From positions 68,289-132,288 of the forward strand of contig CASDPP010000003.1 in assembly GCA_949282725.1 (NCBI GenBank): a DNA stretch of 64,000 bases. Direction: 5' to 3'. The notes beneath the pieces were generated by a model. It did not search any database. It was not told where the DNA came from and worked only from the letters and a program-made list of their open reading frames with translations. The DNA is from an uncultured Mycoplasmataceae bacterium (lineage in GTDB: Bacteria; Bacillota_I; Bacilli_A; Mycoplasmatales; Mycoplasmoidaceae). This document shows positions 3,687-35,778 of this stretch, piece after piece. Position numbers and translations under genes: made by a program. The number at the start of each line of letters is the position of its first letter. Within the stretch, counting starts at the first letter, position 1.

Positions 3687-5045
3687 ATGATTGATCTTAA
3701 AAAATTAAATGATCAGTTGGAAGAATTAAAACAAATCATTAAAACTAGTGATTCTGATTTTTTATTTTTTAATGAATTTATTAGTCCTTTAGTAATTAAT
3801 GACATAAAAAATAATAATATTATTATTAAAACTGTTAGCGATTGATCAAAAGTTAATTTAACTAACAATTATAAGCAACAATTTGATCAATTTTTTAGCC
3901 AAAAAAATAATGAAAAAATGAGCTGTTGTTTTGTTGGTAAAAACGAACAATTTAATGAAACTAAATTTGATGAAAATATAGTTCATGCTAATGTTTCTAA
4001 ACCAATAGGTTTAAATAAAAATTTTACATTTGATAATTTTGTTGTTGGTGGTTTTAATAAAACAGCTTTTAATGCATGCAAAACATTATTTAATAAAAAA
4101 ATTATGTGGAATCCTATATTTATCAGTGGAGATGTAGGGTTAGGAAAAACACATTTATTGCATGCTATTGGCAATGAATTTCATAAACTTTATCCTGAAA
4201 AAAAGATTAAATATATATCAGCTGATAATTTCATTAGAGAAATATATAATGCTCTTTCAAAAGACGCTAACACATTAGAAAGAGTAAAGGAAGAATATGA
4301 ATCGATGGATTTATTTTTATTAGATGATATCCAATTTTTAGAAGGAAAAGAAAAAATTAATGAAATCTTTTTTAATTTATTTAATAAAAATATCCAAGAT
4401 GGTAAAATTATTGTTATGACATCTGATAAAGATCCTAGTTATTTAAGAAATGTTGAGGATCGAATTAAATCTAGAATTCAATCTGGTTTATTTATTAAAA
4501 TAAAGTCACCTGAATTATCTTCTGTTAAATCTATTTTTGAAAAAAAAGTAAATGAATATGAAACTTCTTATATTTTTACACAAGATGCAATTGATTATAT
4601 TTGTCGTAGAAATGTTAGTGATATTAGAAAACTAGAAGGATTTATTAATCGAATTTTATTTTATGCAATTAATAATTTACCACCTAATGCAGTTATCACA
4701 CTAGATATTGTTAAAAATAATACGGAAGTTGAAAAATATGAAATGATTAAAAATATTGGATATGACATTGACCCAAGACAAGTTATTGAAATAGTATGTA
4801 ATATTTATAATGTTTCATCAGATTTAGTTACATCTAAAAGCAGATTAAAAAATTTAAATACTGTTAGACATGTTTGTATGTACATACTAAAAAGAAAATT
4901 TAATATGCCATATAACCAAATTGGTTCTTATTTTTCAGGCAGAAATCACTCTACTGTTTTAGAAGCTGTTGAAAAAATTAATGTGTTAATGGAAAAAGAC
5001 CCGAATTTAAAACAGTTTATTGAAAATATTTATAAAAAAATATAA
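3687..5045 (+). CDS. dnaA: chromosomal replication initiator protein DnaA
   Basis: Track ORF 3918..5045 has the AAA+ Walker A ([15 protein letters not shown]) and the C-terminal DnaA-box-binding region ([11 protein letters not shown]). An in-frame ATG at 3687 extends it 77 codons through one TGA. Confidence 0.9.
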
Positions 5046-5050
5046 TTTTT

Positions 5051-6310
5051 TTATATCTTAATTGTTTTTTTTCTTCTGATAATAAATCAAATTCCTAAAC
5101 TAATTAAAGATAAAACAATAGCTGCTATTCCTAATGATAACCCTAAAATTAAATTTAAGTTGTTGTCTTCTTGTTGTGAATTAACATTTAAAGTAATTGT
5201 TTCAGAATCAACATAAATACTTGTCGAACTATTTGTCGCCTTTAATTTGAATTTATATGTTCCTTCAACACATTGATCTGTTCAATATAATGATCCTTGA
5301 TTATCAATTGACAGCCAATCTGGTTTATCCCCTTCATTCATTACAATTTCTCATTGATCTGGGTCTAATAATTGACTATTAATAGAGTATTTTTCTGATC
5401 CTGATTGATTTTTTAAAGTATTTATATTTATGTTACCTTGTACTTGAAACGATTGAAATAATGAAATAATAGTAATTTGTTCTGCCGATGTTTTTTCATT
5501 GCCTAAATTAAAACCTTTTATTTGAAATGTGTATATACCTTCTGGTACTTGATTTCAATTAATTATTCCATCTGAAATTGACAAACCTTCTGGTATTTGT
5601 GTTGTTTGTTTTATTGGAACTAATGATCAATTTGTAAATTTAGTGATTGTTTCTGGACTAAATCCACTATAAGTAAATTTGTTAGTTGTTGATCCTGATT
5701 CTGTTGGTTTGATTTCAATTTGACTAAAATCACCTGCTATAGTTGCTTGAGCAGAATCATAACTTCATTCATCCACATTGCTTGCTTCAAAACCAAAATT
5801 CAACGCTGATGTATAATCATTTTTTGAATTACTTGGTACATATATTTTAAATAATGTAGATCCGTATCAATTTTGTCCAAATGATGGAATTTGTGTTGAT
5901 GAAAAAGCTATTTCACTAATTTGTGTAGGATTAAAAGCTTGTTGTCCGATATTATTTAATGAATTAGGTATCATTATATCACCTGATAAATTTGAACATC
6001 CAGCAAATGAATTAATTCCAATAGAAGTTAAACTTGTAGCTTGAGATAAATCTAACGAAATAAGGTCTGGTGTATTATAAAAAGCCAAATCTCCGATTGC
6101 TGTTATATTAGAATTTACTTTTAGCATTCCTTCGCCTGAGACGTATCCTGTGATTGTTGTCCCGTCAACAGTTACAGTAATATCACCCATAACTTCATTC
6201 CCATTAGTGGTGTTTTGGATATGAATTTTTTTTGAATTGTTTTGAATGTTTGTATTAACTAATATCGGACTAAATAATAATAGTGAACTAAGAAATGTAA
6301 TTTTTTTCAT
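5051..6310 (-). CDS. BspA-like leucine-rich-repeat surface protein with two Ig-like repeats and a C-terminal membrane anchor
   Basis: N-terminal signal-like MKKITFLSSLLLFSPILV is followed by LRR_5-type repeats (ITAIGDLAFYN..SLTSIGINSFAGCSNL..LNNIGQQAF). After TGA read-through come two He_PIG-like units (IPEGLSISDGIINWNQVPEGIYTFQIK and KPDWLSIDNQGSLYWTDQCVEGTYKFKLK). It ends in a hydrophobic helix plus RRKK. 5051..6310 is exactly 420 codons. Confidence 0.65.
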
Positions 6311-6588
6311 AATTTAATAAATTAAATTATAAACTATTTATTTGTTTATTGTTATTTATGATTGTTGTAAATAATTATAATTTTTATATTTTTTTATTAT
6401 TTGAAATTTTAGTTGTATAATATTTCTAACCTGGAAACGTTTTACAGGGAAAAAAATAAAAAATTTAACAAGAAGGCCTCTAATTAAGATTTTGATAAGA
6501 TTATAATCGCATAAATAATGATTTTAATTATCTTAATTCAAAAGTCTAAATCTTGCATAAAATTTCCTTCCTGTTTAAATTTTTTTTT

Positions 6589-6750
6589 GCTCTTTTTTTC
6601 CAAAGAGCACCGCTCTTTAAATCATTTTTTGCCAGTCAAAAAATGATATAATCTCCCACCGGGAGAAAAAAAAGACAAAAATTTTTTTGGCTTCGGGCGT
6701 GGCGCGGAAAATCGTTTCCGCAAAAATCGCGTAGCGCATTTTTGGCTGGA
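6589..6750. other. GC-rich cluster of perfect hairpins, possibly a structured RNA or miniature repeat element
   Basis: GCTCTTT(6589-6595)/AAAGAGC(6602-6608)/GCTCTTT(6612-6618) form two mutually exclusive hairpins. ATCATTTTTT(6621-6630)-GCCAGTC-AAAAAATGAT(6638-6647) is a 10-bp stem. TCTCCC-ACC-GGGAGA lies at 6652-6666 and GCGGAAA-ATCG-TTTCCGC at 6704-6721. By hand count, 6689..6752 is about 58% G+C in a very AT-rich context. Confidence 0.3.
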
Positions 6751-6757
6751 GCAAATT

Positions 6758-7237
6758 TTATATTTTCATCCGATAAATTAAATGAATATAATCTAAAATT
6801 TCTACATATGTTTCATTTGCTTTTTTATCTGAAAATTTTTTTTTATTATTTCAATTATTAAATTTTGTTTTTGTCTCTTCACAACATTTTAAATATGTAG
6901 ACCATATTTTTTCTTCCACATTTTTATCTCTTAAAAAAATATTTCTTGATTGATCATTATTTGAATAATCAAATTGTTTGTTTGGGTGAACAAAAAAATC
7001 TCTTCATTCTTTTATTCTTTTTGAATTTAAAATTTTTTTTCCTAAGTTAAATTTTTTTATAATGTCGTTTAAGTTAATTAAAATGGTTAAAAATAAAAAA
7101 TTTGATGCAAAATTTAAAAGATAACTATCTTTTTTTTCTTTACAATTATCTGAAATCATTAAAAGTATTAGATATAAATCTTTAGTTTCAATTAACTTTT
7201 GTTTATAAAATTCTTTTCTACTACTAGATTTATTCAT
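6758..7237 (-). CDS. hypothetical protein downstream of hsdR (Rx4H motif, possible HEPN-like)
   Basis: Track ORF 7004..7237 extends through TGA codons to TAA at 6758..6760, exactly 160 codons. It looks predominantly helical and contains WRDFFVHP (R-x4-H). It starts 25 nt after hsdR on the same strand. Confidence 0.5.
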
Positions 7238-7262
7238 ATTTTATTCTTTGTTTTAATATTTA

Positions 7263-10200
7263 TTAAAAACTAAAATCATCATCTGATATTGTGTAATATC
7301 TATCAAAAAAATTCTTAATTCTTTCAATTATTTTATTTTTTGTATTAAATCTTACTTTTTCTTTACTAAATCTAGATAATGGTGGCATAATCTTGGCAAT
7401 ATCTACACCATTTGTTTCAATTTGTCCTTTTTGAAAAGAATTTGACATAAATTTAATAGTTTCTTCTTTATTTAAATGTTCTTCTGAAATTATTTTTAAT
7501 AATTCTTCTCATCTTTTTTTTCTAATATATTGTCTAAATTCACCATAAACTTCGTTTGTTTTATTTAATATTTTTATAAATTCCAGAATTAAATCTTTTT
7601 TATTTCTAAGTTGAATATTAGAATCCAAAATTTTGTTTATGTTAACCAATATTTCTTTATCGTTTGTTTTTGTATATTTATTTAATAAATTTAAGATGTA
7701 ATCTATATTAACATCTTCCTGTTTGATAAGTTCTATTTCAAAAACTATATCATCAGTGACATCTTCTTTGTCAACGTGTTTTCTATATTGTTCATAAATA
7801 TCTAAATAAATAGATTTGTAATCTTGTCATTCTCTTTCTGTTAATATTTGATCGTTTTCGAATTCATCAAAACAACTTAAAATGTTTCTTACTTTTAATA
7901 TTTGACCGTAAAGAAAAATAAAATCTTTTTTATTTCTTTCTCCTATTATCTCTTTACCAATTGGATAAATATTTTTTAATTTTTCAATAAGTTTTTTGTA
8001 ACCTATAAATTCTTGACCTTTATAACTGTATCCATAATAATATTCATCATAAGTTTTTAAAATAACAATGTTTTTAGAGTCTTTATTACCAAATAATAAA
8101 AGAGCTTTATTTAAATTTTCCTCAAGATTTCTAAAACATATTATGTTACCAAATTTTTTAATATTGTTTAAAATACGATTTGTTCTTGAAAATGCTTGTA
8201 TTAAACCGTGATATTTAAGATTTTTATCTACTCATAAAGTATTTAATGTTGTTGCATCAAACCCAGTCAAAAACATATTAACAACTATTAATAGATCTAG
8301 TTCCTTGTTTTTCATTCTCATAGAAACATCTTTATAATAGTTTGAAAAATTACTTCCTGCATCAAATGACGTTCCGAACATTTTGTTGTAATTACTTATA
8401 GCATTTTCTAAAAATTCTCTTGAATTTTTGTCTAATCCATCTACACTATCACTATTTTCATCTTCAATAATTTCATCTTCTCCTTCATTTGGATTGTAAC
8501 TGTATATTAAACCTATTTTTAAATTGTGTTGAATTGATTTAAATTTAGAATAATATGCTTTAGCTAGTTCTATATCACCGACAGCAAAAAGAGAATTAAA
8601 TCCTGATAAACTAACTTCTTTCTTTTTTTCTCCTATGTTTCTGTTTTTTACTAATTTATTTATATTTGTTACTTGTTTAAATGTGTAGTTTTCACTATGT
8701 TTTGTATATTGATCAAAATGTTTTAAAATATAGTTTACAACATTAGTTATTCTTTCATCGTTATGTAAAACTTTTTTGTTGTCAATAGCATATACTTTTT
8801 TATCTAATATGTTTGATTTTCCTTTAAAAGTATTAATATAAGTTAATTTAAAAGGTAAAACATTTTCATCGTCAATTGCATCTATGATTGTGTATGAGTG
8901 TAGTTGTTCTCCGAATAAATCTTGAGTTGTTTGATAGTGAATTAAGTTTTCTTTAAATATCGGAGTTCCAGTAAAACCAAACATGTAATATTTTTTGAAT
9001 TTGGTTCTAATTTGTTTATGCATTTGTCCAAACTGACTTCTATGACACTCATCAAAAATAATAACAACTTCTTCATTATATATGTCGTGTTTAGAATTCT
9101 TTTTAATGAATTTATCTAATTTTTGAATTGTTGTTATGATGATGTTTGAATCAGGATCTTCTAATTGTTTTTGTAATATTTTTGTATTAGTATTTGAGTT
9201 AGCACAACCTTCTTGAAATCTGTCATATTCTCTCATTGTTTGATAATCTAAATCTTTTCTATCAACAACAAATAATACTTTTTTTATATATTCAAGTTGT
9301 GTTGCTAAAATAGCAGTTTTAAAACTTGTTAAAGTTTTACCACTTCCTGTTGTATGTCAAACATATCCACCAGATCCTTGTTTTCCATATTTTTTGTAGT
9401 TATGAGATAATGCTATTTTATCAATTATTCTTTCTGTGGCTACTATTTGATATGATCTCATTACTAATAGTCTTTCATCTGAAGTAAAAACACAATATTT
9501 AGTAATTATGTTTAGAATTGTGTGTTTAGAAAAGAATGTTTTTGTAAAGTCTGATAATGATTTAATTTTATTATTTTTACTATCTGCTCAATAATTAGTG
9601 AATTCAAATGTATTATTTCTTTTCTTTGTTGAGTTTTTTACATGTTCTTGTCTTGTTGTATTTGAATAGTATTTTGTCAATGTACCATTTGAAATTACAA
9701 ATATCTGAACATAATCAAATAAACCCTTACCAGATCAAAAACTATCTCTTTTATATCTAGTTATTTGATTAAATGCTTCTTGTAAACTAACTCCTCTTCT
9801 TTTTAATTCAATATGAACTAATGGTAATCCATTAACTAATATAGTTACATCATATCTATTTTTATGTTTACCATCATTATTTTCATATTGATTAATTACT
9901 TGTAAAGAATTGTTGTGAATATTTTTTTTATCAATTATATAAATGTTTCTTTCTTGACCATTATCTAATTTAATGTTTTTTACTCAATCTAATTGAATTC
10001 TTTTACTTTTTTCAACAATGCTATCTTTATTATTAGAAATAAAAGAATCAAAGAATAATTTTCATTCTTTTTCAGAAAATTTATGTTTATTTAATCTTTC
10101 AATTTGATTACGAAGATTTTGAATAAGTTCTTCTTCATTTTTAATAAATAAATAATCATAACCTTGTAGTTTTAAGTTTTTGATGAATTCTTTTTCTAAA

Positions 10201-10301
10201 TTTTCCTCACTTTGATGAGAAGTTTGTTTATCTGTTTTTTGTTTAAATTCTGTAACTACTGTACTTTCGTTATTTTCTGATATTGTTTTTATTTTGTTCA
10301 T
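7263..10301 (-). CDS. hsdR: Type I restriction enzyme R subunit (HsdR)
   Basis: Track fragments 10062..10301, 8232..9236 and 7263..7448 share one frame, and 3039 nt is 1013 codons. Hand translation of 9237..10061 shows only TGA interruptions. Motifs seen: [38 protein letters not shown] (Walker A) and [10 protein letters not shown] (DEAH box). Confidence 0.9.
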
Positions 10302-10304
10302 AAT

Positions 10305-10838
10305 TTATTCTTCCTCAAATGTTAATAATTTATTTCTATAGTATTCGTATTGTTTAGTTCTCATTTCTATTTCTGCTGGTATTCCTTCAGATAAGTCATT
10401 TACTAATGTATCAAATTTGTCTAAAATTTCTACTATTTCTTTTTGTTTTTCTTGTGGTGGAATTGGAATTTTTATATCTAAAATCCTTTTCATGCTTGGG
10501 TGTTTTATACCAGCACCAACAAAACAATTTTCTATAAAATTTTTATTAGATTGTAAAAAATAATAAATATATTTAGTGTTAAATTTATTTTTATCGATAG
10601 AAACACAGATATTATTTAAAGAATTTAAAAATTTTCCATTTCAATATTTAATATTTGCTGTGCCTCCTGTAGGTATTGTAATAACTTCATTCTCATAATA
10701 ATTTTTACAAATTTTATCATTTGTATACCCATTCAAAAAACCAGTTGATAATAATTTAATATCACCATCTTTTTGTATTAATTTTTTTAATTGTTTAGAA
10801 CTAATAGATTTAATATTTATTATTTTTTGTTGTTTCAT
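10305..10838 (-). CDS. hsdS: Type I R-M specificity subunit, C-terminal half (TRD2 plus distal conserved region)
   Basis: Fragments 10641..10838 and 10305..10493 are in frame across one TGA. It ends with IPIPPQEKQKEIVEILDKFDTLVNDLSEGIPAEIEMRTKQYEYYRNKLL, the conserved HsdS coiled-coil region. It has its own ATG at 10838, preceded by AAGGAATAGACAAA. Confidence 0.85.
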
Positions 10839-10873
10839 TTTGTCTATTCCTTGAAATTTTTTATTTCATTTTG

Positions 10874-11461
10874 TTATTTCTCACAAAGAATATCATCTAA
10901 TCCCCCCCCGTTATCTTTTTCTTTATCAAAATCTAATAATTTATTTCTATAGTATTCATATTGTTTCTTTCTAGCTGTAAGCTCTGCTGTAAGCTCTGCT
11001 GTAAGCTCTGTAAATTTATCCAGAATATCTACTATTTCTTTTTGCTTTTCTAAAGGTGGAATTGAAATAATTAAATTTTCAATTACCTTCTTTTTAATGG
11101 AAGGAATTGTTGTTGTAGTTTTTTTAGAAATTAAATAGTTTTCATTATTTTTAAGAAAATAATATAAAAATTTATTTAATAATTTATTTTCGTTTCTTGA
11201 TTTAATTAAAAAACAATGATAACCTAACCAAAATTTTGTTTTAATAAAATCAACATTACCCGCTGATCCACCTTCTGCTATTGTTATTGAATTTTCTGGT
11301 GCATTATATGTACTAAGATAACCTGTGGGTTTGGTCCCTCCATTTATTAATGGATATTCTCCTGATTTTTTAGTTTTATTTTTATTTACTTGTTGACCTT
11401 TTATTATTTCACAACAATCAATAATTTTTAAATATTCAATATTTTTACTATTTATTTTCAT
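10874..11461 (-). CDS. hsdS: Type I R-M specificity subunit, N-terminal half (TRD1 plus central conserved region)
   Basis: 195-aa ORF ending IPPLEKQKEIVDILDKFTELTAELTAELTARKKQYEYYRNKLLDFDKEKDNGGGLDDILCEK. It terminates 8 codons after the G8 tract (minus-strand sense). Confidence 0.85.
   Translation of the reverse strand: MKINSKNIEYLKIIDCCEIIKGQQVNKNKTKKSGEYPLINGGTKPTGYLSTYNAPENSITIAEGGSAGNVDFIKTKFWLGYHCFLIKSRNENKLLNKFLYYFLKNNENYLISKKTTTTIPSIKKKVIENLIISIPPLEKQKEIVDILDKFTELTAELTAELTARKKQYEYYRNKLLDFDKEKDNGGGLDDILCEK
10902..10909 (-). repeat. homopolymeric C8 (G8 in gene sense) at the hsdS TRD1/TRD2 junction
   Basis: Direct read at 10901-10910 is tccccccccg. A +1 length change reads GGG GGG GGG ATT AGA TGA TAT TCT TTG TGA GAA ATA ACA AAA TGA AAT AAA AAA TTT CAA GGA ATA GAC AAA ATG AAA CAA. 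This has no TAA or TAG and is in frame with the downstream half. Confidence 0.9.
10974..11009 (-). repeat. three perfect tandem copies of a 12-bp unit (gctgtaagctct) encoding (TAEL)3 in the HsdS central conserved region
   Basis: Direct read gives units at 10974-10985, 10986-10997 and 10998-11009. The protein reads ELTAELTAELTA. Confidence 0.95.
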
Positions 11462-11463
11462 AT

Positions 11464-13013
11464 TTATAATTTTTTAATTATTTGTTCTATTTTTGTTCTT
11501 AAATTATGTTGAGTTTTAACTATTCTATTTATTTTGCTATTTAATTCGAATATATCTATTTTTTCAGTGGTTATTTCTTTTTTTATGTAAGTATTTACCG
11601 CAATGTTATAATCATTTTCTTTTATTTCATCTAATGTTGCTAAATAAGCAAAATTTTCTTCATTTTTTCTTGATTTAAATATGTTAATAATTTTTTCAAT
11701 ATTTTCTTTTGATAATTTATTTTTTGTTTCTTTTCTAACAAATTGATTGCTTGCATCAATAAATAAAATATCATTATTATTTTGTTTATTTTTCTTTAAA
11801 ACAATAATACAAGTAGCTATTGTAACACCAAAGAAAAGATCTGAAGGTAACAAAATAACTGTATCAATAAAATTATTATCAATTAAATATTTTCTTATTT
11901 TTTGTTCTGCTCCTTCTCTATATAAAACACCAGGAAACTCAACTATTGCACACGTTCCTTGAGGAGATAATCAACTTAACATATGCATCACAAATGCTAA
12001 ATCTGCTTTACTTTTAGGTGCTAAAACTCCTGCTGGACTAAATCTTGAATCATTAATTAACAACGGATTACTATCTCCTGCTCATTTAACTGAGTATGGC
12101 GGATTTGAAACTATCGCATCAAATGGTTCATCATCAATATGCTTAGGATCTTCTAATGTATCTCCTAATTTAATACTAAATTTATCATAATTTACATCAT
12201 GAAGAAACATATTAATCTTACATAAATTAAATGTTGTAATATTTTTTTCCTGACCATAAAATCCTTTTTTAACATTTTCTTTTCCTAATATTTTTGCAAA
12301 ATTTAAAAGCAATGATCCTGAACCACATGCTGGATCATAAACTTTATTAACATATTTTCTATCAACTATTGTTAATCTAGTAAGTAATTCACTAACTTCT
12401 TGTGGAGTAAAGAATTCCCCCCCGACTTACCTGCTTCACTAGCATACATAGTCATTAAAAATTCATATGCATCTCCAAAAACATCTATGTTATTTTCTTT
12501 ATAATTTCCCAATTTAAGACTATCAATCGCATTTAACAATTTAATTATTTTTTTATTTCTTTCATTTACAGATGAACCTAATTTATTACTATTAAAATCT
12601 ACATCTGCAAATAATCCTTTCATACTTTCTTCTGAATCATAACCAATAGCAGAATTTTCTATACTTTTAAAAATGTTAGATAATGTAATATTTATATCAT
12701 CATCATTTTTAGCATTTTTTACAATATTACTAAAAAGTTGAGAAGGTAAAATGTAAAATCCTTTTTCTTGTATTGTTTCTTCTCTACCGTATTCTGCTTG
12801 TTCATCAGAAATTTTTTCATAATTAAAATTTACATTACCTGCTTTTTTTTCTTGATTATTAATATACTCAACTAAATTTTCTGAGATGAATCGATAAAAT
12901 AATAATCCTAAAACATATTGTTTAAAATCTCATCCATCTACTGAACCTCTTAACTCATTAGCTATTTTTCAAATAATTTTAAATAATTCTTTTCTTTCTA
13001 TTTCTTTAGACAT
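11464..13013 (-). pseudogene. hsdM: Type I R-M methyltransferase subunit HsdM, frameshifted at a C7/G7 tract (apparent phase-OFF allele)
   Basis: N-terminus MSKEIERKELFKIIWKIANELRGSVDGWDFKQYVLGLLFYRFISENL. Fragment 12372..12623 is in frame with ATG 13013 and ends ..EAGKSGGNSLLHKK. Fragments 12082..12312 (with the NPPY motif SNPPYSVK) and 11464..11853 are in the +1-shifted frame. Total length is 1550 nt, which is 3n+2. With G8 the junction reads [34 protein letters not shown]. Confidence 0.85.
12417..12423 (-). repeat. homopolymeric C7 (G7 in gene sense) inside hsdM
   Basis: Direct read is agaattcccc/cccgactt. It sits exactly at the frame break between the two hsdM reading frames. Confidence 0.9.
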
Positions 13014-13014
13014 A

Positions 13015-13245
13015 ATTTTTTTATTAATAATATTATATAATATTAACAAAACTATTTATATAGTTCAAGGCAATTTTAAAATTCTAATTTCATAGAATCT
13101 TCTTACCTTTCTGTTTTGCCTTGTTTTTTTTATATATCTGTTGTTGAAAACTTTGTTGGAATTTTGATTTTATATATTTATATATAATAATAAAATTAAA
13201 ATAAAATAAATTATAAATATAAAATATTTATAATATATATAACTT
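13015..13245. other. candidate oriC / DNA-unwinding region upstream of dnaN
   Basis: 231-bp non-coding spacer. TGTTGTTGAAAA and TTTGTTGGAA at 13139-13160 include TTTTCAACA, two mismatches from the DnaA box TTATCCACA. About 90 bp of almost pure A/T follows (13161-13245). The usual dnaA-flanking spacers are only 59 bp and 5 bp here. Confidence 0.3.
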
Positions 13246-14361
13246 ATGAAATTTTCCATCAATACTAAATACTTTTTAAAAAATTTAAAATATATTCAAA
13301 GTAATTCATCTTCTAATACTAATCCTATTTTAGATGGAATTTATATTAATGTAAATCAAGATGATGTAACTATTACCTCATCTAATGAAAAAGATACTAT
13401 TAAAATAAAATTAGATCAAAATCTAACTATTCATTCGACAGGAAATATATTAGTCAAAACAAGTTTATTTATTGATTTAATATCTAAAATAAAATCAGAT
13501 ATAATTGAAATTAATCAATTAGATACATCAGTTATTAGAATAACAGGAAATAAAGTTGTAGCTGATTTAAACCTCCTAGACTCAAATTTATATCCATCTT
13601 TTGATTTTTCAATTGAAAATGGACAACAAATAACTATACCATCATATTTAATTTCTAAAATTAAACATAAAATAATACCTTCTATTTTAATGAACAGTTT
13701 TGATAATAACGTTTTATCTGGTATTTTATTTGATTCTACAAGATTAGAAAATAAATTAGAAATTGTAGGAACTGATTCATATCATTTATCTTACATCAAT
13801 GAAAACTTTAATGGACCTAAACTTAAATTTGTTTTAAGTAAGAAATTTATTGATTTAATATCTGAAATAATTTCAGATACTGATATTAAAGAAATTAATT
13901 TAATTATAAAAGAAAAAAATATTATTCTTAACTTACCTAATTATCAAATTTTATCTAGATTATTTGATAATGAATATCCTAATATTTCTAAAATTATTGA
14001 AACAAAAAATCAATATCATTTTGAAATAAATAAAGATGATTTAATTGATGCTATTAACTACGCTACAACAATACGAACAAATGAAAATAAATCATCTTCT
14101 TTACAATTTGATATTAAAGAATCGGAATTAGTTGTTTCATTGCAAAGCATGGAAGGTAATGTTCAAAGTAATATAAATATAGAAAAAAGTAATATTAATC
14201 CAACAATATTTTATTTCAATTATAAATATTTAATTGATATTTTTAAATCTATTACATCTGATAAAATTCTTATTGAATATCAAAGTAATATTCAACCAAT
14301 TATTGTTAAAGATTTAAATGATGATTCTTATATTGGTATAACATTACCAATAAAACAATAA
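13246..14361 (+). CDS. dnaN: DNA polymerase III beta sliding clamp
   Basis: 371-aa ORF of the right size and in the conserved position upstream of gyrB-gyrA. It shows a three-domain clamp-like pattern ending YIGITLPIKQ. Confidence 0.8.
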   Translation: MKFSINTKYFLKNLKYIQSNSSSNTNPILDGIYINVNQDDVTITSSNEKDTIKIKLDQNLTIHSTGNILVKTSLFIDLISKIKSDIIEINQLDTSVIRITGNKVVADLNLLDSNLYPSFDFSIENGQQITIPSYLISKIKHKIIPSILMNSFDNNVLSGILFDSTRLENKLEIVGTDSYHLSYINENFNGPKLKFVLSKKFIDLISEIISDTDIKEINLIIKEKNIILNLPNYQILSRLFDNEYPNISKIIETKNQYHFEINKDDLIDAINYATTIRTNENKSSSLQFDIKESELVVSLQSMEGNVQSNINIEKSNINPTIFYFNYKYLIDIFKSITSDKILIEYQSNIQPIIVKDLNDDSYIGITLPIKQ

Positions 14362-34941: not shown

Positions 34942-35778
34942 ATGTTTGAATCTTTAAAAATTAAAATTAAAATTGGTGATATTCCAATTATTTGATGTGG
35001 ACAAAATAAAAATCCTAACAAGATATTTTTTATTTTAAATGTTGCTAATGCACCAAAAGAAATTGTTAAGATGTATGATTTAAAAAATATCAATACAGAA
35101 AACAATTTACTTGTTTCATTAGATTGACCAGGAATAGGCGAAAACCCATTACAACCATCAAAAAAAATAAGATACTATTTGGATTATATTAATCAAATAA
35201 TTAATTATTTTAAAGATAAATACCCAAATAGTAAATTTAATTTAATTGGAGAATCTTTTGGAGCAGACATAGCTATTTTATATGCAAAAAAATATCCTAA
35301 ATCAATTGATACTTTAATAGCAAGCAACCCCCCTTTTGGATTAAAAAATCCAAAAAAAAGCGAGGAAAGTGATTCAACATTTTATATGTTTTGAACTCAT
35401 CTTTTTACTTTATTATTTAATAAAGAATATAAAACTACACCAGCTGGTTTTGAACAATTAACTAATAATGAATTACTTAAAAGAATGTTTTTAATATCTA
35501 GAAAAAAAACACAATCTTCTAGATTGCATGTTGCCGCTTGAAAGGCAATGATGTTAGCTAAGAAGGCAACAATTAAAAGATTTAAAAACGATTTAAAACC
35601 TAATTCATATTTCTTTTTTGCAAAAAATGAATTTTATTGTAAAAAAAACCAACCAATAGTAAAAAAGATTAAGCAATGTAAAACAACAAAAAACAAAATA
35701 TTTGAATTTAATAGCTCAGAACATTTTTTGTTTTTTGATCCACAAATAGCAAAACAAATTTGAGAAAAAATATTGTAA
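34942..35778 (+). CDS. alpha/beta hydrolase (lipase/esterase GXSXG)
   Basis: The nucleophile elbow is LIGESFGADIAILYA. Three in-frame segments are joined by TGA. An in-frame C6 tract lies at 35328..35333. Confidence 0.6.

What the first reader, a model, noticed from the sequence alone, without database searches (positions are those of the whole stretch)
10874..10920. A C8 tract sits exactly where one extra base would fuse two half-hsdS genes into a full two-TRD specificity subunit
As sequenced, hsdS is two ORFs. The first is TRD1 plus the central conserved region (10874..11461). The second is TRD2 plus the distal conserved region (10305..10838).

The first ORF stops 8 codons after a G8 run (gene sense, 10902..10909). 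I translated the junction by hand with G9. It reads DNGGG IRWYSLWEITKWNKKFQGIDK MKQQK, with no TAA or TAG and only TGA (Trp), and it lands exactly in frame on the ATG of the second half. The combined span is 1157 nt, so +1 gives 386 codons. With G7 it terminates immediately at TAG.

An 8-nt C/G homopolymer is very unlikely by chance in DNA this AT-rich, and such tracts are classic slipped-strand phase-variation sites. In type IC systems (EcoDXXI, EcoR124I), truncated single-TRD HsdS proteins are known to dimerise and specify palindromic sites. Tract length could therefore switch the enzyme between two different recognition sequences rather than simply on and off. The downstream half also has its own AGGA-ATG start, so a split-subunit assembly is a third possibility.
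Basis: partly seen in the sequence, partly recalled or inferred. Interest (0 to 1): 0.85.

Follow-up and report, generated by a model that had tools for sequence, protein, structure and literature searches.

The report
Poly-G switches in a restriction-modification operon

Summary
C8 lies at 10902-10909 (G8 in gene sense). G9 fuses the two half-hsdS ORFs into a 385-aa two-TRD HsdS, and G7 or G10 stop at once.

The tract length varies in nature. Eleven assemblies carry the same dnaN-adjacent locus. Six are read through the hsdS tract, showing G8, G9 or G11. One assembly has no substitutions against the window over 17.1 kb yet carries G9 and a fused hsdS.

The G9-frame linker is true TRD2 coding sequence. 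ORF2 on its own therefore lacks the start of its domain.

G7 in hsdM (12417-12423) truncates the methyltransferase, and G8 restores a 516-aa HsdM. G7, G8 and G9 all occur in nature. As sequenced, the whole system is predicted OFF.

A 12-bp TAEL repeat (10974-11010) also varies between 2, 3 and 4 copies.

The system is type IC (EcoR124-like). Its architecture matches NgoAV of Neisseria gonorrhoeae, where poly-G length switches specificity between a truncated and a fused HsdS. Simple repeats between TRDs are documented in about 8% of hsdS genes.

Verdict: a real hypermutable switch and a new member of a known kind. The combination of three variable elements in one operon is a modest novelty. The two specificities are inferred, not shown.

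The parts
12372..13013 (-). hsdM 5' fragment as sequenced. It encodes 213 aa: the HsdM_N domain plus the first residues of the N6_Mtase domain. It ends prematurely because the tract is G7.
   Evidence: Code-4 ORF list, frame analysis, and Pfam on the repaired protein.
12417..12423 (-). hsdM poly-G tract. It is G7 here (C7 on the + strand), which is OFF. G8 reads AAG TCG GGG GGG GAA TTC = KSGGEF, running through the conserved GGEFFTP motif of the methyltransferase domain, and gives a 516-aa HsdM.
   Evidence: G8 (ON) is found in L088, L089, L090, L095 and L096, and G9 (OFF) in L091-L094. P0242 is identical to the window's G8-repaired HsdM. Only 1 of 80 HsdM relatives has a G-run of 7 or more at this motif.
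11464..12416 (-). The rest of hsdM, the catalytic N6_Mtase domain. It is open to its stop codon only in the frame reached with G8.
   Evidence: Match to the EcoR124II M protein, E=5.9e-172.
10874..11461 (-). hsdS ORF1 (195 aa): TRD1 plus the complete central conserved coiled-coil region, followed by an 8-codon out-of-frame tail.
10974..11010 (-). Perfect 12-bp tandem repeat, 3.1 copies, encoding (TAEL)n in the central conserved region. It is the EcoR124-type spacer-length determinant. Copy number is 2, 3 or 4 in other alleles.
   Evidence: TRF. L091 (2 units) and L095 (3 units) differ by one unit with no substitutions over 13.2 kb. Role in EcoR124I/II is as quoted in PMC7383803.
10902..10909 (-). 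hsdS poly-G tract. It is G8 here (C8 on the + strand), which gives the truncated HsdS. A length of 3n (G9) gives the full two-TRD HsdS.
   Evidence: G9 is found in L081 and L089, G8 in L088 (L096's contig ends after 8 G's inside the tract, so its length is not known), and G11 in L091, L092 and L095.
10839..10901 (-). N-terminal 21 codons of TRD2 (IRWYSLWEITKWNKKFQGIDK). They are translated only when the tract is G9. In the G8 state this stretch holds the ORF1 tail, its stop codon and the gap between the ORFs.
   Evidence: The stretch aligns to TRD starts in P0015, P0006 and P0050 and to EcoR124II TRD2. The same TRD type sits at the N-terminus of the L088 allele, starting MIKEIKWYYLWEITKWNKKFQGIDK.
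10305..10838 (-). hsdS ORF2 (177 aa): the remainder of TRD2 plus the distal conserved region. An AGGA lies 9 nt upstream of its ATG.
7263..10301 (-). hsdR, intact here (1012 aa), with a type IC EcoR124_C C-terminal domain.
   Evidence: Pfam. It is disrupted in relatives by non-repeat mutations.
9719..9726 (-). Site within hsdR of the 8-bp deletion found in the otherwise identical assembly L081. The 8 bp are present and in frame in the window.

Best explanation
This is a type IC (EcoR124-like) restriction-modification operon, hsdM-hsdS-hsdR. It sits between dnaA and dnaN in an uncultured Mollicute, and its activity and specificity are set by hypermutable simple repeats.

**The switches.**
- **hsdS poly-G tract.** It lies directly after the central coiled-coil region. 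Replication slippage changes its length. A length of 3n (G9) gives a full HsdS (TRD1-CCR-TRD2-DCR, 385 aa). Any other length (G8 here) gives a 187-198-aa TRD1+CCR half-subunit.
- **hsdM poly-G tract.** It lies at the KSGGEFFTP motif and acts as an ON/OFF switch. G8 is ON. G7, as in this window, and G9 are OFF.
- **12-bp TAEL repeat.** It is a third variable element, with 2 to 4 copies, expected to change spacer length.

**Predicted effect of the hsdS switch.** By analogy with NgoAV and truncated EcoDXXI, the half-subunit should dimerise and direct M2S2-type methylation of a palindromic bipartite site. The full HsdS should specify an asymmetric bipartite site.

**State of the window.** It reads hsdM OFF, hsdS half, hsdR intact. 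The system is therefore predicted to be silent, and one G insertion away from activity.

**Shown:** the anatomy, the frames, the tract polymorphism among natural haplotypes, the homology of the linker to TRD2, and type IC membership.

**Inferred:** slippage within clones, dimerisation of the half-subunit, the two recognition sequences, and any regulatory (phasevarion) role.
For: **Anatomy and family.**
- Frames are established.
- Pfam finds Methylase_S twice, N6_Mtase with HsdM_N, and EcoR124_C.
- EcoR124II M matches at E=5.9e-172 and EcoR124II S at E=4e-36.

**Tract states in assemblies of the same locus.**

| Assembly | hsdM tract | hsdS tract | hsdR |
|---|---|---|---|
| window | G7 | G8 | intact |
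| L081 | G7 | G9 (fused, 385 aa) | 8-bp deletion |
| L089 | G8 | G9 | intact (all ON) |
| L088 | G8 | G8 | intact |
| L095 | G8 | G11 | frameshift |
| L091, L092 | G9 | G11 | frameshift |
| L096 | G8 | contig ends in the tract | not covered |
| L090 | G8 | not covered | not covered |
| L093, L094 | G9 | not covered | not covered |

**Haplotype pairs with no substitutions differ only at the repeats.**
- Window vs L081: 17.1 kb, differing at the hsdS tract plus an 8-bp hsdR deletion.
- Window vs L096: 2.35 kb, differing only at the hsdM tract.
- L091 vs L095: 13.2 kb, differing at the hsdM tract plus one TAEL unit.

**The downstream frames are kept open.**
- Every hsdS allele is open for 384-392 aa when the tract length is 3n.
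- P0242 equals the window's HsdM with G8.

**The linker is real TRD2 sequence**.

**The tracts are not chance features.**
- Rare codons build both tracts.
- In hsdS genes of loci found by HsdM homology, a G-run of 7 or more follows the central conserved region in 9 of 53 cases. It follows the distal conserved region in 0 of 65 cases.
- Two more such tracts were found in loci picked for a GGG at the junction: Campylobacter lari with G9 and L086 with G8.

**Precedent.** NgoAV in PMC9577141 and the REBASE survey in PMC7383803.
Against: - No read-level data were available, so switching within a clone is not shown. The differences between assemblies could in part be consensus or assembly choices.
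- No methylome or expression data exist for this organism.
- hsdM is OFF in three haplotype groups, and hsdR carries ordinary, non-repeat, inactivating mutations in two lineages. In some strains the system therefore looks to be decaying rather than being used.
- Tract lengths are the same across several assemblies of one lineage (G9 in L091-L094). This could mean the same strain was sampled repeatedly, or that switching is not very fast.
- The hsdM tract lies mid-gene, whereas most hsdM repeats in the REBASE survey lie in the 5' region.
Confidence: 0.72

Rival explanations
1. Decaying R-M system. The frameshifts are ordinary loss-of-function mutations that happened to fall at the most mutable sites. 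The locus is a set of pseudogenes with no maintained switching function.
For: - hsdM is out of frame in the window, L081 and L091-L094.
- hsdR is broken by an 8-bp deletion in L081, and by an A3-to-A4 insertion in L091, L092 and L095. Neither is a reversible repeat change.
- The window has both hsdM and hsdS out of frame.
Against: - All sequence downstream of both tracts stays open in the restored frame in every allele, with no secondary stops over 190 and 318 codons.
- Fully in-frame versions exist (L089; P0242).
- Both tracts are retained across alleles that are 94-98% identical and carry different TRDs.
- The tracts are built from rare codons.
- The same junction tract recurs across phyla.
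- On the hsdR-broken background, hsdM still differs ON versus OFF between haplotypes with no substitutions (L095 vs L091).
Confidence: 0.13
2. Homopolymer length error. The window's true sequence is G9 in hsdS and G8 in hsdM, and both were under-called by one base during sequencing or assembly, so both genes are actually intact.
For: - Both tracts are exactly one base short of the in-frame length.
- The related sequences are metagenome assemblies, and the window probably is too.
- One contig (L096) breaks inside the hsdS tract, which shows that assemblers struggle there.
Against: - 31 A/T runs of 8 or more lie in intact ORFs.
- Lengths of 7, 8, 9 and 11 are seen, not only minus one.
- The two assemblies read through both tracts for one haplotype, L091 (ENA) and L092 (Logan), agree at G9/G11, and L093 and L094 also show G9 in hsdM.
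- L081 shares the window's hsdM G7.
- Even if the window's lengths were wrong, the tracts and their natural polymorphism would remain.
Confidence: 0.08
3. Split-subunit assembly. ORF1 and ORF2 are both translated, ORF2 from its own AGGA-ATG. They associate through their conserved regions as a heterodimeric HsdS with the same specificity as the fused protein, so tract length has no phenotypic effect.
For: - AGGA lies 9 nt upstream of ATG 10838.
- ORF2 retains most of TRD2 and the whole distal conserved region.
Against: - ORF2 lacks the first 21 residues of TRD2 (IRWYSLWEITKWNKKFQGIDK). These are conserved in homologous TRDs, including the same TRD type at the N-terminus of the L088 allele and EcoR124II TRD2.
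Confidence: 0.04
4. Transcriptional slippage or ribosomal frameshifting on the G-run yields a mixture of truncated and full-length proteins from a single allele. Under this reading the DNA length sets a ratio rather than a binary state.
For: No direct evidence from these tools. It rests on general knowledge that long homopolymers can cause RNA polymerase slippage.
Against: Nothing was tested here. From my own knowledge, slippage is best documented on A/T runs of 9 or more, whereas this is a G run of 7-8. Differences in DNA length already explain the observed gene calls.
Confidence: 0.03

Closest known systems
NgoAV type I R-M system of Neisseria gonorrhoeae FA1090 (Adamczyk-Poplawska et al. 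2011; PMC9577141)
   Same: - Gene layout is hsdM, hsdS1, hsdS2, hsdR, with a poly-G tract at the 3' end of hsdS1, between the two TRDs.
- The out-of-frame length gives a truncated HsdS of about 200 aa carrying TRD1 and the central region.
- A one-base change fuses hsdS1 and hsdS2 into a protein of about 400 aa.
- Tract length is polymorphic among strains (6G to 9G in gonococci; G8, G9 and G11 here).
- hsdS2 alone is inactive. Here ORF2 lacks the start of TRD2.
   Different: - The host is a 24% G+C, code-4 Mollicute.
- The specificities are unknown here. For NgoAV they are GCAN8TGC and GCAN7STCA.
- This operon has a second poly-G tract in hsdM that turns the whole system ON or OFF, and a variable TAEL copy number. 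Neither is described for NgoAV in the papers read.
EcoR124I / EcoR124II (type IC) and truncated EcoDXXI HsdS
   Same: - HsdM, HsdS and HsdR are clear homologues of the EcoR124II proteins.
- The central conserved region carries the 12-bp TAEL repeat, whose copy number (2 vs 3) changes the spacer from N6 to N7 in EcoR124I/II (quoted in PMC7383803). Here 2, 3 and 4 copies occur.
- Truncated type IC HsdS subunits dimerise to recognise palindromic sites (MacWilliams and Bickle 1996, cited).
   Different: - In the alignment to the EcoR124II S protein, the five residues that include the tract's first two Gly codons fall in a gap, so EcoR124II has no counterpart of the tract there.
- The EcoDXXI truncation was a laboratory construct, not a natural reversible switch.
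Simple-repeat-containing hsdS and hsdM genes catalogued from REBASE (Atack et al. 2019, PMC7383803)
   Same: - The hsdS repeat lies between the two TRDs, immediately after the TAEL coiled coil, as in all hsdS cases in that survey.
- The hsdM repeat is predicted to act as an ON/OFF switch.
   Different: - The survey required mononucleotide tracts of 9 or more and full-length annotated genes, so a G7/G8 locus with both genes out of frame would have been missed.
- Mycoplasmataceae hsdS repeats reported there are AG(n), not poly-G.
- Most hsdM repeats there lie in the 5' region, whereas here the tract is at codons 198-200 of 516.
- In the passages read, the one species named with both kinds (Mannheimia haemolytica) has its hsdM repeat and its hsdS poly-G repeat in different systems.
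Helicobacter pylori type IIG enzymes JHP1272 / HP1353-HP1354 (Krebes et al. 2014, PMC3936762)
   Same: The logic is two switches. One homopolymer turns the enzyme on or off, and a second homopolymer changes its recognition specificity.
   Different: Those are single-polypeptide type IIG enzymes with both tracts in one gene. Here the two tracts sit in separate subunit genes of a type I system.

Membership tests
Type IC restriction-modification systems (EcoR124 family) | HsdM, HsdS and HsdR are homologous to the EcoR124 subunits, and HsdR has the EcoR124-type C-terminal domain. | tested here: met
   HsdM matches the EcoR124II M protein at E=5.9e-172. HsdS matches the EcoR124II S protein at E=4.2e-36. 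HsdR hits Pfam EcoR124_C at 1.4e-56 and T1R_D3-like.
Type IC restriction-modification systems (EcoR124 family) | The central conserved region of HsdS carries tandem 12-bp (TAEL) repeats. | tested here: met
   A perfect 12-bp repeat of 3.1 copies lies at 10974-10911-side coordinates 10974-11010 and encodes TELTAELTAELTAR.
Type IC restriction-modification systems (EcoR124 family) | Gene order is hsdM-hsdS-hsdR. | tested here: met
   hsdM is at 13013..11464, hsdS at 11461..10305 and hsdR at 10301..7263, all on the minus strand, with gaps of 2-3 nt between genes. That this order is typical of type IC rests on my own knowledge.
NgoAV-like repeat-switched hsdS (full vs truncated specificity subunit) | A homopolymer lies between the two TRD coding regions, directly after the central conserved region. 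| tested here: met
   The G8 tract starts 11 codons after YYRNKLL. The same position holds a tract in C. lari (G9), in L086 (G8), and in 9 of 53 related hsdS genes.
NgoAV-like repeat-switched hsdS (full vs truncated specificity subunit) | One tract length fuses the halves into a full two-TRD ORF. Other lengths give a TRD1+CCR protein with the coiled-coil region intact. | tested here: met
   G6 and G9 give 384 and 385 aa. G7, G8 and G10 give 187, 195 and 188 aa, all of which retain ...RKKQYEYYRNKLLDF.
NgoAV-like repeat-switched hsdS (full vs truncated specificity subunit) | Tract length is polymorphic among strains or isolates of the species. | tested here: met
   G8, G9 and G11 are found in the assemblies read through the tract. 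The window and L081 differ G8 vs G9 with no substitutions over 17.1 kb.
NgoAV-like repeat-switched hsdS (full vs truncated specificity subunit) | The truncated and full forms give two different methylation specificities. | not testable with these tools
   This needs methylome data or heterologous expression. It is inferred from NgoAV.
NgoAV-like repeat-switched hsdS (full vs truncated specificity subunit) | Reversible switching occurs within a clonal population. | not testable with these tools
   No reads were available. An indirect hint is that contig L096 ends inside the tract.
Phase-variable hsdM (ON/OFF by a simple repeat) | A simple repeat lies inside the hsdM ORF, and its length decides whether the full-length protein is made. 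| tested here: met
   G7 gives 213 aa and G8 gives 516 aa.
Phase-variable hsdM (ON/OFF by a simple repeat) | ON and OFF lengths are both found in natural strains. | tested here: met
   G7, G8 and G9 are all observed. Two haplotype pairs with no substitutions differ only at this tract or at this tract plus one TAEL unit: window vs L096, and L091 vs L095.
Phase-variable hsdM (ON/OFF by a simple repeat) | The repeat lies in the 5' region of the gene, as in most surveyed cases. | tested here: not met
   The tract is at codons 198-200 of 516, in the conserved GGEFFTP motif. The survey statement is in PMC7383803. This is a tendency rather than a strict criterion.

The most novel reading that the evidence does not exclude
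One type IC operon in a minimal-genome Mollicute carries three independent hypermutable elements:
- an hsdM poly-G tract (ON/OFF);
- an hsdS poly-G tract (half vs full specificity subunit);
- the TAEL 12-bp copy number (spacer length).

On top of these come swapped TRDs. Together they would give a single locus an OFF state plus several distinct methylation specificities.

The hsdM tract still differs ON vs OFF between substitution-free haplotypes whose hsdR is already destroyed. The system may therefore be kept as a phase-variable epigenetic regulator (a phasevarion) rather than for defence.
Probability: 0.35. Interest if true: 0.55.

Novelty: new member of a known kind. Interest (0 to 1): 0.4.

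Why it matters
**What it shows.**
- The locus is a clean natural example of repeat-driven switching. Haplotypes with no substitutions over 2-17 kb differ only at these repeats, apart from one 8-bp hsdR deletion. The repeats therefore mutate faster than anything around them.
- It extends NgoAV-type hsdS switching to uncultured Mollicutes.
- Poly-G tracts at the central-region/TRD2 junction recur in this type IC family across phyla.

**A practical lesson.** Annotation pipelines will call this operon four pseudogene fragments, although it is one or two G's away from a working enzyme. Surveys that require tracts of 9 or more, or intact genes, will miss such loci.

**Limits.** The mechanism itself is established, so this does not open a new question.

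Tried and rejected
- **Exact-protein look-up of ORF1 (195 aa).** It is not on record.
- **Metagenome (JGI) DNA scan.** I used the tract flanks with a variable gap and got 0 matches.
- **Genome-contig scan with HsdM.** It returned only 62-70% identical relatives from many phyla and not this species. Those loci were still useful for the family-wide tract surveys.
- **First HsdS protein search.** It gave no near-identical proteins. The fused 385-aa protein of L081 is evidently not in that index.
- **Sample origin.** A search of papers for the sample and run accession prefixes found nothing relevant, so the host or habitat is unknown.
- **Other hsdS copies or a shufflon arrangement in the window.** There are none. 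tblastn finds only this locus.
- **Split-subunit reading.** Considered and rejected (see rivals).
- **Not run.** Structure prediction and fold search were skipped, because sequence matches to EcoR124II were already decisive.
Full report
**1. The observation**

The window is 24.3% G+C and uses TGA as Trp. Long ORFs appear only with code 4.

On the minus strand, between dnaA (3687-5045) and dnaN (13246-14361), lies a tight operon:
- hsdM, 13013..11464
- hsdS, 11461..10305
- hsdR, 7263..10301

The + strand has C8 at 10902-10909, which is G8 in gene sense. As sequenced, hsdS is two ORFs:
- 10874..11461, 195 aa, ending DNGGGLDDILCEK*
- 10305..10838, 177 aa

Inserting one G gives a single open 385-aa ORF reading ...DNGGGIRWYSLWEITKWNKKFQGIDKMKQQK.... 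G7 and G10 stop at once at TAG.

The tract is far beyond chance:
- About 0.005 G/C runs of 8 or more are expected in the window.
- GGG is only 7.3% of Gly codons in the other genes, so three GGG codons in a row have P of about 4e-4.
- 31 A/T runs of 8 or more lie inside intact ORFs, so there is no general homopolymer miscalling.

**2.

The only other G/C run of 7 or more in 64 kb is C7 at 12417-12423, inside hsdM.
- With G7, hsdM stops after 213 aa.
- With G8, it reads AAG TCG GGG GGG GAA TTC (KSGGEF) through the conserved GGEFFTP motif and gives a 516-aa HsdM with HsdM_N and a complete N6_Mtase domain.

HsdM is needed for both methylation and restriction. As sequenced, the whole system is therefore predicted to be OFF, whatever the state of hsdS.

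The codon choice TCG-GGG-GGG has P of about 2e-4 under the window's codon usage. Among 80 HsdM relatives at 62-70% identity, the same motif carries a G-run of only 2-3 nt in 72 cases, and of 7 or more in just one. The hsdM tract is thus specific to this lineage.

**3. Family**

- The repaired HsdM matches the EcoR124II M protein at E=5.9e-172.
- The fused HsdS matches the EcoR124II S protein at E=4e-36.
- HsdR has the EcoR124_C domain.
- The central conserved region of HsdS contains a perfect 12-bp tandem repeat (10974-11010, 3.1 copies) encoding TAEL units.

This is a type IC system.

**4. The linker is real coding sequence**

In the G9 frame, the 21 residues between the tract and the ORF2 ATG (IRWYSLWEITKWNKKFQGIDK) align to TRD starts elsewhere:
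- the start of homologous TRDs in unrelated HsdS proteins, such as P0015 (HLWEITKWNKSFNTVNK), P0006 and P0050;
- the start of EcoR124II TRD2, GEVEWKTLGEIGKW;
- within the same species, the L088 allele, where this TRD type sits at the N-terminus and begins MIKEIKWYYLWEITKWNKKFQGIDKEKQQK.

So G9 (3n) is the native frame. ORF2 started from its own ATG would lack the first conserved segment of its domain.

**5. Natural variation**

Exact-protein look-ups with DnaN and GyrA, and with near-identical HsdM proteins, retrieved the same dnaN-adjacent locus from several ENA and Logan metagenome assemblies. The tract lengths come, the TAEL counts, and the hsdR lesions.

| Assembly | hsdM tract | hsdS tract | TAEL units | hsdR |
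|---|---|---|---|---|
| window | G7 (OFF) | G8 (half, 195 aa) | 3 | intact |
| L081 | G7 (OFF) | G9 (fused, 385 aa) | 3 | 8-bp deletion |
| L096 | G8 (ON) | contig ends inside the tract | 3 | not covered |
| L089 | G8 (ON) | G9 (fused) | 3 | intact (everything ON) |
| L090 | G8 (ON) | not covered | not covered | not covered |
| L088 | G8 (ON) | G8 (half, 211 aa) | 4 | intact |
| L095 | G8 (ON) | G11 (half, 202 aa) | 3 | +1 A frameshift |
| L091, L092 | G9 (OFF) | G11 (half, 198 aa) | 2 | +1 A frameshift |
| L093, L094 | G9 (OFF) | not covered | not covered | not covered |

In every one of these loci, the two tracts are the only G/C runs of 6 or more.

Three haplotype pairs have no substitutions at all, yet differ at the repeats:
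- Window vs L081: 17.1 kb, differing at the hsdS tract plus the 8-bp hsdR deletion.
- Window vs L096: 2.35 kb, differing only at the hsdM tract.
- L091 vs L095: 13.2 kb, differing at the hsdM tract plus one 12-bp TAEL unit.

The repeats therefore change faster than any base substitution accumulates in the surrounding kilobases.

All four combinations of hsdM ON/OFF with hsdS full/half are observed. Every hsdS allele, including those currently out of frame and those with different TRDs, gives an open 384-392-aa two-TRD ORF when the tract length is a multiple of three. P0242 is identical to the window's HsdM repaired to G8. Keeping hundreds of downstream codons open in out-of-frame alleles is what a reversible switch predicts, and not what old pseudogenes predict.

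**6. A family-wide feature**

In Campylobacter lari, the homologous hsdS has G9 encoding NGGG at exactly the same junction. An unrelated 31% G+C contig (L086) has G8 there.

In loci retrieved through HsdM homology from many phyla:
- 9 of 53 central conserved regions are followed within 75 nt by a G-run of 7 or more. Some of these are out of frame (L022, L070).
- 0 of 65 distal conserved regions, which end in the same YYRxxLL motif, are followed by such a run.

This agrees with the REBASE survey, where simple repeats in hsdS "invariably occur between two TRDs", immediately after the TAEL coiled coil (PMC7383803).

**7. Mechanism**

*Shown.*
- The anatomy and the frames.
- The hypermutability inferred from natural haplotypes.
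- Type IC membership.

*Inferred from named precedents.*
- Lengths other than 3n yield TRD1 plus a complete central coiled coil. Its end, ...RKKQYEYYRNKLLDF..., resembles a natural HsdS C-terminus, ...TKQYEYYRNKLLTFEEE.
- Such half-subunits dimerise and specify a palindromic bipartite site. This was shown for NgoAV, where the truncated form recognises GCAN8TGC and the fused form GCAN7STCA (PMC9577141). It was also shown for truncated EcoDXXI (cited).
- TAEL copy number should set spacer length, as in EcoR124I (N6) versus EcoR124II (N7).
- The hsdM tract acts as a master ON/OFF switch. The same two-switch logic was demonstrated for the H. pylori type IIG enzymes JHP1272 and HP1353-54 (PMC3936762).

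**8. Rivals**

- **Decay.** It has some support. hsdM is OFF in several lineages, and hsdR carries non-repeat lesions in two. The open downstream frames, the ON variants and the retention of the tracts across diverged alleles argue against simple pseudogenisation. On the hsdR-broken background, hsdM still differs ON versus OFF (L095 vs L091). This hints that methylation, not restriction, may be what matters there, or else that slippage simply continues neutrally.
- **Homopolymer error in this particular assembly.** It cannot be excluded without reads, but it would not remove the phenomenon.
- **Split-subunit assembly and RNA-level slippage.** Both are minor possibilities.

**9. Organism**

GyrB is 100% identical only to unnamed metagenome proteins. 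The nearest named relatives are Ureaplasma diversum (70%), Malacoplasma penetrans (69%) and Mycoplasmataceae or Malacoplasma MAGs. The source is an uncultured Mollicute of unknown habitat.

**10. Verdict**

It describes a known kind of switch, NgoAV-like and catalogued in about 8% of hsdS genes.

This analysis adds four things:
- the hsdM tract, which makes the system OFF as sequenced;
- the variable TAEL repeat;
- direct population evidence that each repeat varies on otherwise identical haplotypes;
- the recurrence of the junction tract across phyla.

Novelty: new member of a known kind. Interest is moderate.

Noticed in passing
window 5051-13245; L088 6067-8951; L091 13440-16303: The R-M operon, a 159-aa ORF with no Pfam hit (6758-7237) and a BspA-type LRR surface protein (5051-6310) are wedged between dnaA and dnaN, which are usually neighbours at the replication origin. 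In other strains, two N6_N4_Mtase genes and a 428-435-aa ORF follow hsdR instead. This looks like a strain-variable island at the origin.
   Followed up: partly
window 9719-9726 (hsdR); L091, L092 and L095 hsdR at alignment column 833: hsdR is inactivated by ordinary, non-repeat mutations in two lineages. L081 has an 8-bp deletion, and L091, L092 and L095 have an A3-to-A4 insertion. In both lineages the hsdM and hsdS tracts are retained.
   Followed up: yes
L096 (ends at window ~10902) and L082 (ends at window 13168), both from sample ERZ17292903: Two short-read contigs from one sample break at this locus. One ends inside the hsdS poly-G tract, and the other ends 79 nt upstream of dnaN. Within-sample heterogeneity at this locus would produce such breaks.
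   Followed up: no
hsdS alleles in L088, L091, L095 vs window 10305-11461: TRDs are swapped between strains. L091 and L095 have a different TRD1 (about 38% identity). L088 has the window's TRD2 type in the TRD1 position (76% identity) and a different TRD2. The sequence flanking the tract, GATTTTGATAAAGAAAA(A/G)GAT(AAC/GAT)-Gn-ATTAGATGA, is shared by all alleles and may also serve as a recombination joint.
   Followed up: partly
L084/L085 5577 (Campylobacter lari CP177183.1, CP177185.1); L070 9259; L022 10313: Homologous type IC hsdS genes in C. lari (G9, in frame), a Bacteroidales MAG (G13, out of frame) and a Paludibacter MAG (G9, out of frame) carry poly-G at the same junction. These are candidate phase-variable hsdS genes in those organisms.
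   Followed up: partly
window 35328-35333: This is the third-longest G/C run in the window (C6). It lies inside the 34942-35778 (+) ORF and is followed by the short inverted repeat TTTGGATT...AATCCAAA. Its significance is unknown.
   Followed up: no
L087 5001-6179 (ERZ1645015 scaffold_0, 19.5% G+C): A related code-4 contig encodes an HsdS (P0015) with the same LWEITKWNK-type TRD2 but has no G tract at the junction, which reads AAT AAT AAT GAT instead. The tract is therefore not obligatory for this TRD or for low-GC hosts.
   Followed up: partly
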